Assembly: GCF_009914755.1 (NCBI RefSeq)
Contig: NC_060935.1
DNA length: 64,000 bases
From: the human T2T-CHM13v2.0 reference genome, Homo sapiens
Direction: 5' to 3' (one strand)
Under the pieces are notes generated by a model that searched no databases, had not been told where the DNA came from, and worked only from the letters and a program-made list of their open reading frames with translations. The position numbers and the translations under genes were made by a program. Positions 7,661 through 12,222 of this stretch are shown here, piece after piece. Each line of letters begins with the position of its first letter. The stretch's first letter is position 1.

Positions 7661-8211
7661 AAATGCTTGATGAAGGGGCATTTTCATGGGCCCTGAACTG
7701 TACAGGACTTTAGGGGTGCACTTATCTAAATGCCTGGCCCTTAGGGTCGAGATAGCTGGTGGCTAATATAATCCAACAGTCCATCAAACATCAGTTCAGT
7801 CCAGCTGACTGGCTGGGTCTGTTATCAGCAGTGCCAATCACAAGAACCTGGTCATAGAATCTCAAAGTTGGACAGAGCGCTAGAAACCACTGCAACCACT
7901 CTTCCACCCAGACACAGTAACAGTACTACCTCATAAGGCTGTCATGAGAATGAAATGGGTTAATATTTGCTGAATACTTACAATAGTGTCTGATGCATAA
8001 TAAGACCTTTGTGAGGTCAGTTAAATAAACACTGTTTGCTGAGCACCTGCCAACCATGGGCACTAGTCAAGGTGCTGTACCCACAGTCATATCATTTAAC
8101 CCTCTCTCCAGCCCAGCTGTCCTGATCCTAAGGGCCAGGCAGTTAGATGGGTATACCCCTAAAGTCCTATACAACTCAGGGCCCCTGAAAATGCCCCCTC
8201 ATCCAGCATTT
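7661..8211. repeat. Old inverted repeat, arms 7661-7759 and 8113-8211
   Basis: Ungapped 99-nt alignment with about 15 mismatches (hand count). Confidence 0.9.
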
Positions 8212-8859
8212 TCCCTACATATGGAAACAAACACCATTGTTTGAAAAAAGTAAAAAACCTTCTTTACACTGAGCTGAAATTTGCCTCCAGTGATTTCTTC
8301 TTGGACTACACCGAATAAGTTTCTTGCTCTTCCACTCCATAAGCCTACAAAATACTGGAGAACAGCTGTCAGGAGAGATAACAAACCCGAAGCCTGGAAA
8401 TCACTCATCAAACCAGTTTTCTTCCTTTTAAGTGACAAATATGTGGGTTGGGTCAAAACTGGAAGAGAAGATCTGCTGCCAGGCCACAGTGCCCTTTGGT
8501 TTTTGCTTTCCAGATGCTCGGGAGCCATTCTGCAGGCAAGCAGACCTATTTGCAGGGACGGGCAATTGTTGCTGTGGTGCAATGAAGCAAGTGGGGCTGG
8601 GAAAGAATCCTTAAGAAGATGGTTCCTGCCAGATTTCTTTCTGCCAGTGCCACAAACTTTAATTAAAGCGAGCCCTCAGGCTGCACCAGGGACTACAGGT
8701 GCTGTGATGTTGGTGTCCAATGGGGTCAACAGAAAGAACTGCTAACTGTGAGTGAGGCAGCAGCCAAGATGCAAGCACCAGCCAACATGCAAAGAGAAAA
8801 GAGAAAATGAACCTGTGTTCCCTTCCGATAAGACAGTATTTACAAACCGGAGATCTGGA

Positions 8860-9050
8860 GACTGACAGGCGGGGTCCCAAACTCAGCTCTGGCACTTGAA
8901 TAAACCAGATGACTTGGGACAAACTACTTAATGCTCCTACCTCCCCTCTTCCACACCTTTTCTTCCTCTATATAAGGAGGATGATAATATCTACTCTGTG
9001 GAGTTGTTTTTAATGATTTACCAAAATGAACAAATGTCAGGTATATTAGT
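8860..9050 (+). mobile_element. MIR
   Basis: cccaaactcagctctggcact..gatgacttgggacaa..gatgataatatctact core. Confidence 0.7.
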
Positions 9051-9139
9051 TGTTATTATTTGAAAATTTCCCATATACAATCCTTACAGATACATTTGGA
9101 GCAGTCGTTACTAATCCTACTCTCCTACTCTTCTGTTTT

Positions 9140-9714
9140 TCTTTAATAGAGTCTTGCTTTGTTGCCCAGTCTGGAGTGAGTGGTGTGATCACAGCTCACT
9201 GCAGCCTCAACCTCCTGGGCTCAAGCGATCCTCCCACCTCAGCCTCCCAAGTAGCTGCGGCTACAGGCACATGCCACCACATCTGGCTAATTTGTTGTAG
9301 AGATGAGGTTTCACCATGTTGCCCAGGCTGGTCTCAACTGGCCTCAAGCAATCCACCTGCCTTGGACCTCCCAAAGTGCTGGGATTACAGATGTGAGCCA
9401 CAGAGCCCAGCCCTTTTTTCTTAAGAGTAAAGGTCTCACTATGTTGCCCAGGTTGAAGTGCAGTGGTGTGATCATAGCTGACTGTAGCCTCTAACTCCTG
9501 GACTCAAGTAATCCTCCTGCCTCAGCCTCCCAAGAAGCTAGGACTACAGGCAGGCACACCATGCCCAGCTAATTTTTAGATAATTTCTCGTATAGACAGG
9601 GTCTCACTGTGTTGCCCAGGCTGATCTTGAACTCCTAGCCTCAAGCAATCCTCCTGTCTTGTTGGCCTCCTAAAGTGCTGGGATTATTAAAGGAGTGTCC
9701 CACTGCACCTGGCT
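9140..9714 (-). mobile_element. Two tandem AluJ-like elements (9140-9412, 9415-9714)
   Basis: ctcactgcagcctcaacctcctgggctcaagcgatcctccc (AluJ-type), diverged. Confidence 0.9.
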
Positions 9715-9830
9715 GTAATCTCATTTTATAAATGAAGAAACTGAGGTTTAGAAAATTAACTCACTTGCCCAAGGTCACCAAGTTATAGACCGAGGAATGA
9801 AAATTTGATGTATCTGAGGTCCTCTTTTCA
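9715..9830 (-). mobile_element. MIR
   Basis: cattttataaatgaagaaactgaggtttaga..acttgcccaaggtcac. Confidence 0.8.
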
Positions 9831-10369
9831 CCCACTCCAGTAACAAACAAGAAAGCTCACAGCCCAGGGAAATCAGCCCCACCTGGTACAGAGGTGAGGG
9901 TGTGGAAAAGACAGGAGAGATAAACAGGAAACAGCATAGCACTAGGGTGGAACCAGGACAGGCAATGAATAGGAGACCAGAATAAAGCATGATTAAAAGA
10001 ACTCTGTGCAGGCCAGGGAGTGGGAGGTGGGAAGAAGGTGTCAAGTTCATTGGACTGGTTGGAACCATCAAAAAAGGTTACTTGCACAGTATGCTGTGCA
10101 GATAGCCCATAGCTTGTTCCAGGAAGAAAGCCCTCCAAAGCCTCAACCTTCCTAACTCCTTAATCCAGGCAGGGAAGTGGTCCACATCAATTCAGTCTCC
10201 ATCCCCAAAATACCCACAACCCTCATCTATAGTACCTGTTGCCCAAGAGTCCTTTAATAAGGTAAAGAAACTTTTATTCTGCTATCTGAGAAAACTGTAA
10301 AGCAGATCTGCTTAAAAAGCAGACACTCTGGGGAAAGCAACACACTGACTTTAAGACTGTGCTCTTTCT

Positions 10370-12222
10370 TAAAAAATTTCAACTTTTATCTTAGATCCAA
10401 GGGGTACATATGCAGGTCTGCACAGATACATTGCATGATGCTGGGGTTTAGGGTAAGAATGACTCTGTCACCCAGGTGGTGAGCATAGTACCAAACAGGT
10501 AGCTTTTCCAGCCCACACCGCCCTCCCTCCCTGCTCTAGTAGCCCCCAGTGTCTGTTGTTCCCATCTTTATATGGGAACACCGAAACTTATTCGGTGTAG
10601 TCCAAGAAGAAATCACTGGAGGCAAATTTCAGCTCAGTGTAAAGAAAGTTTTTTACTTTTTTCAAACAATGGTGTTTGTTTCCATATGCAGGGAAAATGC
10701 TGGATGAGGGGGCATTTTCAGGGGCCCTGAGTTGTATAGGACTTTAGGGGTATACCCTTCTAACTGCCTGGCCCTTAGGATCAGGACATCTGGGCTGGAG
10801 AGAGGGTTAAATGATATGACTGTGGGTACAGCACCTTGACTAGTGCCCATGGTTGGCAGGTGCTCAGCAAACAGTGGTTATGTTTATGTTCAATGTTTAT
10901 ATGTTCAATGTTTAGCTCCCACTTATAAGTGAGAACATGCTGTATTTGGTTTTCTGCATTAATTCACTTAGGATTATGCCCTCCAGCTCCATCCATTTTG
11001 CTGCAAAGGACATGATTTTTTTTATGGCAACATAGTATTCCATGGTATATATGTACCATATTTTCTTTATCCAATCCACTGTTGATGGGCACCTAGGTTG
11101 AGCCCATGTGTTTCCTATTGTGAATAATGCTTCAATAAACATATGAGTGTGTGCGTCTTTTTGGTAGGATAATTTATTTTCCTTTGGGTATATACCCAGT
11201 GATGGGATTGCTGGATCAAATGGTAGCTCTGTTTCAGGTTCTTTAAGTGGTGCTACTCATATACAGAAGAATGAAACTAGACTCCTACTTTTCACCATAT
11301 ACAAAAATTATCTCAAGATGGATTAAAGATTTAAATGTAGGACCTAAAACTAGAAAAATCCTAAAAGAAAATCTAGGAAATACCCTTATTGACATTAGCC
11401 TTGGCAAAGAATTTTTGGTGAAGTCCCCAAAAGCAATTGCAACAACAAAAATTGATATATGGGATTTAATTAAATGAAAGAGCTTCAGCACAGAAAAAGG
11501 AACTATCAACTGAATAAACAGATAATTTACAGAATGGAAGAAAATATTCGCAAACTATACATCTGACAAAGGTGTAATATCCAGAATTTATAAGGAACTT
11601 AAACAAATAAGCAAGCAAAAAACAAATAACCCCACTGGGAAATGGGCAAAGGGCTGGGTGCAATGACTCATGCCTTTAATCCCAACACTTTGGGAGGCCA
11701 AGGCAGGAGGATCGATTCAGGCGAGAAGTTTGAGACAAACCTGGGCAACATAAGGAGACCTTGTCTCTACAAAACACTGGGGCATGGTGGCGCATGCCTG
11801 TGGTCCCTGCTACTCAGGAAGCTGAGGTGGGAGGAACAGTTAAGCTCAGGAGGTCAAGGCTGTAAGTGAGTCATGATTGCACCACTGCACTCCAGCCTGG
11901 GAAATGGAGTGAGACCCTGTCTCAAAAAAAAAAAAAAAAACAAAAAAAAAAAAAAAAAAAAAAAACAGGCAAAGGAAATGAGCAGACACTTCTCAAAAGA
12001 AGGCATACAAGTGATCAACGAACATGAAAAAATGCTCATCATCACTAATCATCAGAGAAATGCAAATCAAAACCACAATGAGACCATTTCACACTAGTCA
12101 GAATGGCTATTACTAAGAAGTCAGAAAATAACAGAAGCTGACAAGACTGCAGAGACAAGGGAACATTTATATACTGTTCGTAGGAATGTAAATCAGTTCA
12201 GCCACCATGGAAAGTAGTTCGA
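10370..12222. mobile_element. 5'-inverted (twin-primed) L1: 3' part on minus 10370-11245, upstream ORF2 part on plus 11250-12222
   Basis: Minus arm ends at ..AAAGAACC and plus arm ends at GGAAAGTAGTT, nearly adjacent positions in the L1 consensus. Confidence 0.88.
11651..11966 (+). mobile_element. AluJ-like insertion in L1
   Basis: Alu body, long A tail, GGCAAAGG on both flanks. Confidence 0.9.

What the first reader, a model, noticed from the sequence alone, without database searches (positions are those of the whole stretch)
8030..10876. Young 294-bp inverted templated insertion creating a potential 2.3-kb inversion substrate
Seen: 10583-10876 is the reverse complement of 8030-8323 with 4 substitutions and no indels. 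It interrupts an L1 3'UTR, which marks it as the derived copy, and has no TSD or poly(A), so it is not retrotransposition. Established: near-identical inverted repeats can mediate NAHR inversion and gene conversion. Inference: the copy is great-ape-age or homogenised by conversion, and 8324-10582 may be a polymorphic or recurrent inversion that short reads miss.
Basis: partly seen in the sequence, partly recalled or inferred. Interest (0 to 1): 0.7.

Follow-up and report, generated by a model that had tools for sequence, protein, structure and literature searches.

The report
Inverted DNA patch from break repair
A 294-base stretch of human chromosome 11 is present a second time, back to front, 2.3 kb away inside a dead LINE-1 element; it is likely the scar of an ordinary DNA-break repair, and the DNA between the two copies is not listed as flipped in the inversion catalogues checked.

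Summary
Observation confirmed: 10583-10876 is the reverse complement of 8030-8323, 4 substitutions, no indels; no copy elsewhere was found in the genome. It sits just past the ORF2 stop codon of an old LINE-1 whose halves lie 13 nt apart in 21 of 29 paralogues, so it is the derived copy and CHM13 keeps the L1-collinear orientation. These are the marks of iterated microhomology-primed synthesis (SD-MMEJ/MMBIR type). Such inverted duplications are the commonest inversion-type class in 1,019 long-read genomes (median 284 bp). The inversion idea has no support: no entry at this locus in the inversion tables of 130 haplotypes, 44 samples, 612 IR candidates, or human-chimp; the longest perfect run is 87 bp. 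Intergenic. Ape state untested. A well-preserved example of a known class; low interest.

The parts
8030..8323 (+). Donor (template) copy; extends to 8025 with one further mismatch
   Evidence: agrees with the older copy 7657-7759 at both polarisable sites, 8117 and 8148
10583..10876 (-). Derived inverted copy of 8030-8323, 4 substitutions
10572..10582 (.). Left junction filler, fully explained by two overlapping snap-back hairpins: 10557-10565/10572-10580 (9 bp, 6-nt spacer) and 10578-10585/10591-10598 (8 bp, 5-nt spacer)
   Evidence: 0 of 20,000 random 11-nt fillers fully covered; 117 of 20,000 touched by any 8-bp inverted repeat; folding
10877..10899 (.). Right junction filler: perfect 15-nt tandem copy (10885-10899) of the L1 flank 10900-10914 plus a shorter partial copy
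10375..10571 (-). Host LINE-1, distal 3'UTR half (left of the insert)
   Evidence: 78-83% identical to the 29 paralogues fetched; collinear with the L1 at 1397-1596
10900..11247 (-). Host LINE-1, ORF2 C-terminus (stop at 10912-10914) and first bases of the 3'UTR (right of the insert)
8324..10582 (.). 2,259-nt spacer between the arms (the proposed inversion); no annotated gene; in the L1-collinear orientation in CHM13
   Evidence: annotation supplied with the finding
7657..7759 (+). Older 103-nt inverted copy of 8113-8215 (84%); used here as outgroup

Best explanation
10583-10876 is an inverted copy of 8030-8323 lying inside an old LINE-1, likely made in one germ-line repair event in which a broken or stalled DNA end primed repeatedly on nearby microhomologies, and likely inert and fixed since. 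Shown: the copy, its derived status (L1 halves split), the templated fillers at both junctions. Inferred order, read on the minus strand: the right-hand end slipped back twice on its own flank (15-nt and shorter repeats), switched to the donor about 2.9 kb away near 8025-8030 where both share a short TAAACA word, copied about 294 nt, folded back on itself for a few bases, and annealed through 3 nt to the left-hand end, which had also folded back and been extended. The short fillers look like polymerase-theta/SD-MMEJ work; the 294-nt tract from kilobases away fits MMBIR/FoSTeS or aborted strand invasion finished by alt-EJ; the enzyme cannot be told from sequence. Age is likely within the hominids.
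For: Copy and uniqueness. L1 identity and position. L1 halves 13 nt apart in 21 of 29 paralogues versus 334 nt here. Left filler fully covered by 9-bp and 8-bp inverted repeats, 0 of 20,000 random fillers; the 8-bp hairpin is absent from the donor, which continues differently after 8323. Right filler: perfect 15-nt tandem copy. Snap-back and loop-out products that leave new inverted or direct repeats define SD-MMEJ (PMC5728401, passages). Inverted duplications: 277 of 733 non-MEI inversion-type events, median 284 bp (PMC12350158, passages). No inversion entry here.
Against: No ape or second human haplotype was seen, so 'fixed' and the age are inferred. The filler test was defined after seeing the junction. 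One of 29 paralogues (L018) has a 9-nt tandem duplication at the same L1 site without any insert, so the right-hand 15-nt repeat could in part be independent slippage. Both polarisable substitutions are in the insert (2 of 2; 2 of the 4 could not be polarised), which would fit error-prone synthesis and a younger age. The right junction can be parsed in more than one way.
Confidence: 0.8

Rival explanations
1. The arms act as an NAHR substrate and 8324-10582 segregates, or recurs, as an inversion in humans.
For: 98.6% identical arms 2.3 kb apart. Validated inversions exist with IRs down to 140 bp (PMC13629690); IR-mediated inversions are often recurrent (PMC6748972).
Against: No ID beginning chr11-935 in the held HGSVC3 tables 37/38 (65 samples, 130 haplotypes; they list events of 842 and 861 bp); none in PMC10150506 Table S1 (44 samples); none on chr11 at 93.4-93.6 Mb among 612 IR candidates. 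Longest perfect run 87 bp. 6 of 319 reference-only inverted pairs were polymorphic. These sample sets overlap and miss rare alleles.
Confidence: 0.05
2. The 294-nt insertion itself is a presence/absence polymorphism, young, with its mismatches partly made by error-prone synthesis at birth.
For: 2 of 2 polarisable substitutions are in the insert; fillers are perfect copies; polymorphic inverted duplications of this size are common.
Against: 1.36% divergence is about ten times typical human allele divergence (recalled figure); no SV at these coordinates in the supplement text that could be searched, but those files are cut and hold no full SV list.
Confidence: 0.06
3. The event was born as an inversion with a flanking inverted duplication (A-B-D'-C'-B'-E) and was later flipped back through the arms; the junction sequences would be identical to those seen.
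For: Both products need two template switches and share junction sequence (inference from the anatomy).
Against: Needs an extra NAHR event on short arms and its fixation; CHM13 is L1-collinear; no inversion listed against chimpanzee (draft assembly, approximate coordinates).
Confidence: 0.04
4. An old duplication kept similar by gene conversion between the arms.
For: An older 84% inverted copy of part of the same sequence exists, so the locus has duplicated before.
Against: Identity stops sharply at both ends with no diverged tail; the fillers outside the arms are perfect (9/9, 8/8, 15/15), which conversion between arms would not maintain; at 2 of 2 testable sites the donor keeps the outgroup base.
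Confidence: 0.04
5. Assembly or chimeric-read artefact.
For: Fold-back junctions can arise in library artefacts (recalled).
Against: Four substitutions between the arms and structured fillers on both sides; L1 resumes in register after the insert. Raw reads were not available.
Confidence: 0.01

Closest known systems
Small inverted (dispersed) duplications of human SV catalogues (PMC12350158: 277 events, median 284 bp; INVDUP in PMC12350169)
   Same: Size (294 bp), one copy in each orientation, local template, no poly(A); attributed to replication/repair template switching (passages).
   Different: Those are polymorphic against the reference; this one is in the reference and its arms differ by 1.4%, so it is likely older and fixed (untested).
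SD-MMEJ / polymerase-theta-type junctions (PMC5728401)
   Same: Snap-back inverted repeats and loop-out direct repeats at the junction, several rounds of priming.
   Different: The cited assay concerns short synthesis within tens of bases of the break; here a 294-nt tract comes from 2.3-2.9 kb away. Enzyme untested.
Class 2 templated sequence insertions (TSIP; PMC5110952)
   Same: A few-hundred-base DNA patch at a presumed double-strand break, without TSD or poly(A) (abstract and first part read).
   Different: TSIPs are defined as templated from distant regions and as polymorphic; this template is adjacent and polymorphism is not shown.
IR-mediated NAHR inversions (InvFEST/HsInv; PMC6748972, PMC13629690)
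   Same: Segment bracketed by inverted repeats above 90% identity.
   Different: Arms shorter than the 654 bp-24.2 kb of the 24 NAHR inversions genotyped in PMC6748972; no second orientation recorded.

Membership tests
Local inverted duplication / templated insertion | Second copy of a unique local segment in opposite orientation | tested here: met
Local inverted duplication / templated insertion | Inserted into a pre-existing sequence that resumes on the far side, template left intact | tested here: met
   L1 halves 13 nt apart in 21 of 29 paralogues; ORF2 end intact
Local inverted duplication / templated insertion | Empty-site allele in another haplotype or species | not testable with these tools
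   No second human or ape genome held; ape-genome supplement unreadable
SD-MMEJ / TMEJ-type junction | Junction filler is a direct or inverted copy of sequence near the break | tested here: met
SD-MMEJ / TMEJ-type junction | Dependence on polymerase theta | not testable with these tools
   historical event; sequence only
L1-mediated insertion (TPRT, class 1 TSIP) | Poly(A) tail and TSD directly flanking the insert | tested here: not met
   No A-tract; the only shared flank word (8 nt) is separated from the insert by fillers
Class 2 TSIP | Template from a distant region | tested here: not met
   template 2.3 kb away; no distant copy found
IR-mediated polymorphic inversion | Inverted repeats above 90% identity bracketing the segment | tested here: met
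   98.6% over 294 nt
IR-mediated polymorphic inversion | Both orientations observed | tested here: not met
   By catalogue look-up only: no entry; haplotypes themselves not examined

The most novel reading that the evidence does not exclude
The locus is a small repeat-offender site: the same ~100-nt core was copied in inverted orientation twice (84% and 98.6% copies, three alternating arms within 3.2 kb), and the young 294-bp arms drive a rare or ape-lineage inversion toggle absent from current catalogues, which would be a case of an alt-EJ repair scar seeding its own NAHR substrate near the lower length limit for recombination.
Probability: 0.05. Interest if true: 0.5.

Novelty: new member of a known kind. 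Interest (0 to 1): 0.2.

Why it matters
Little by itself: intergenic (nearest annotated genes about 34 kb and 71 kb away, from the supplied annotation), a common SV class, no sign of variation. Its value is as an unusually legible fossil: both junctions preserve several rounds of snap-back and slip-back priming around a 294-nt tract copied from kilobases away, which links short alt-EJ fillers and longer template switches in one germ-line event. If an inverted allele were found, it would help define how short an inverted repeat can be and still mediate inversion.

Tried and rejected
Retrotransposition/TPRT: rejected (no poly(A), no direct TSD). Staggered-break inversion as the state of CHM13: rejected, since the left L1 half is collinear with the right. 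Dispersed repeat as the cause of the match: whole-genome searches gave only local hits (lower bounds). Testing continuity of the donor across 8323/8324 with paralogues failed: none found. Pfam gave no family for the two L1 frames (0 of 2); the PDB search identified one (only that one was searched). Rfam on the window: 1 match, an SRP/Alu-type hit at 54905-55052, irrelevant. Literature: 'inversion+SMCO4+CEP295' gave 1 unrelated clinical paper; the six-term search for fixed inverted duplications against chimpanzee gave 1 unrelated abstract book. Uninformative look-ups: PMC12350158 supplements hold no inversion list in the text kept; PMC12058530 supplement unreadable; the Cell 2022 inversion paper and the 2018 ape SV paper were not held. 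A rate of such repeats over flanking megabases was not obtained; the background rests on the 64-kb window alone.

Full report
Observation. 8030-8323 and the reverse complement of 10583-10876 are 294 nt each and differ at four positions, without indels; the repeat finder extends the arms to 299 nt with 2,259 nt between them. Among 137 inverted matches of at least 100 nt in the window this is the only one above 87% identity. A search of the whole assembly with the donor found three matches, all at this locus: donor, insert, and an older 103-nt copy at 7657-7759 (the tool warns that its counts are lower bounds). Divergence is 1.36% (95% Poisson interval 0.37-3.5%); the perfect runs are 87, 30, 68, 41 and 64 nt.

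Which copy is derived. The minus-strand frame 10912-11256 matches the last 114 residues of LINE-1 ORF2p (E 2.5e-39), so the insert lies at the very start of an L1 3'UTR. I fetched the 29 best paralogues of the left L1 half (of 40 scored, 2,018 candidates). In 21 of 29 the equivalents of 10571 and 10906 are 13 nt apart; the other 8 have other insertions, truncations or a better right-hand match elsewhere in the locus, one of them (L018) a 9-nt tandem duplication at this site. Here the distance is 334 nt: 294 of copy and 40 of other sequence. So the right arm is the derived copy, and the spacer in CHM13 is in the orientation that keeps the L1 collinear. At the two substitutions covered by the older copy (8117, 8148) the donor agrees with it and the insert differs; 8217 falls at a gap and 8259 is outside.

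Left: the 11 nt between L1 and copy (10572-10582) are wholly covered by two overlapping perfect inverted repeats, 10557-10565/10572-10580 (9 bp) and 10578-10585/10591-10598 (8 bp). Of 20,000 random fillers of local composition, 117 were touched by any inverted repeat of 8 bp or more and 0 were fully covered (test defined after seeing the junction). The second hairpin is not in the donor, which continues differently after 8323. Right: the 23 nt at 10877-10899 hold a perfect 15-nt tandem copy of the flank 10900-10914 and a shorter partial copy. The word TTTATATG is on both sides of the insert (10567, 10896). Read on the minus strand, the right flank, its repeats and the donor start share TAAACA.

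Mechanism. Inferred: a break or stalled end in the L1; the right end slips back on its own flank twice, switches to the donor, copies about 294 nt, snaps back on itself for a few bases and anneals through three bases to the left end, itself extended by a snap-back. Snap-back and loop-out priming that leave new inverted and direct repeats are the definition of SD-MMEJ (PMC5728401, passages seen). The long tract from kilobases away fits MMBIR/FoSTeS, which is what PMC12350158 invokes for complex inversions; there inverted duplications are the commonest class, 277 of 733, median 284 bp (passages). Which polymerase acted cannot be read from sequence. Class 2 TSIPs (PMC5110952, abstract and first part) are similar patches but from distant templates. 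Age: against recalled human-chimpanzee (about 1.2%) and human-orangutan (about 3%) divergences the interval spans roughly post-split to all-hominid; error-prone synthesis would make it younger. No ape sequence was seen.

Is the spacer a polymorphic inversion? CHM13 coordinates are chr11:93,504,030-93,506,876. GRCh38 (about 93.59 Mb) and build 35 (about 92.96 Mb) positions come from recalled gene offsets, so I searched broad prefixes. PMC10150506 supplement 2 (CHM13 inversions, 44 samples): no row at 93.50 Mb on chr11. PMC12350169 supplement (tables 37 and 38, CHM13- and GRCh38-based inversions in 130 haplotypes, including events of 842 and 861 bp): 0 IDs beginning chr11-935 or -936; the file is cut when stored but tables 37 to 45 lie in the kept part. 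PMC13629690 Table S1 (612 IR-flanked candidates merged from five studies of 195 individuals, older predictions and inverted SD pairs): all 23 places starting 934, 935 or 936 were shown and none is on chr11. PMC1270012 (human-chimp putative inversions): none starting 9296 or 9297, one unrelated 9295 (draft chimp assembly). These sets overlap in samples and cannot exclude rare alleles; the full 1,019-genome inversion list, InvFEST and ape tables were not visible. Priors point the same way: 6 of 319 inverted pairs chosen from the reference alone were polymorphic, and the 24 NAHR inversions of PMC6748972 have IRs of 654 bp to 24.2 kb (passages). Against my reading: validated inversions exist with IRs of 140 bp. 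That short reads would miss it is doubtful, since read pairs can span a 294-bp arm (inference).

Rivals are weighed in their own section: segregating inversion 0.05, polymorphic insertion 0.06, inversion later flipped back 0.04, old duplication with conversion 0.04, artefact 0.01.

Function. The supplied annotation has no gene or RefSeq functional element in or near 8030-10876; SMCO4 and CEP295 are about 34 and 71 kb away. Rfam finds nothing here.

Verdict. A real, young, locally templated inverted insertion with well-preserved repair junctions; a new member of a common, known class; the inversion reading is unsupported. That this particular copy is not described in print rests only. Interest 0.2.

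Noticed in passing
window 7657-7759 (+) and 8113-8215 (-): An older ungapped 103-nt inverted repeat (84%), 353 nt apart, no other copy found in the genome. The young insert copied one arm, giving three alternating copies within 3.2 kb. Either an earlier templated inverted copy or old transposon terminal repeats; no TSD is evident and a short direct repeat (8108-8117) sits at one end.
   Followed up: partly
window 11247-12219: The host L1 appears 5'-inverted (twin-priming type): 10375-11247 matches the L1 at 1397-1952 on the same strand, while 11315-11633 and 11988-12219 match its continuation on the opposite strand, with an Alu between them.
   Followed up: no
L018 (G000:C4:147933268-147936465): An L1 paralogue with a 9-nt tandem duplication at the same 3'UTR position where the window's L1 was interrupted; L024 has an apparent Alu-type insertion a few bases further on.
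   Followed up: no
window 9126-9713: Two Alu-like elements head to tail inside the spacer, about 75% identical to other Alu-like copies of the window (family name recalled).
   Followed up: no
window 54905-55052 (-): Rfam Metazoa_SRP match just above gathering score, inside a masked repeat; most likely Alu-derived.
   Followed up: no
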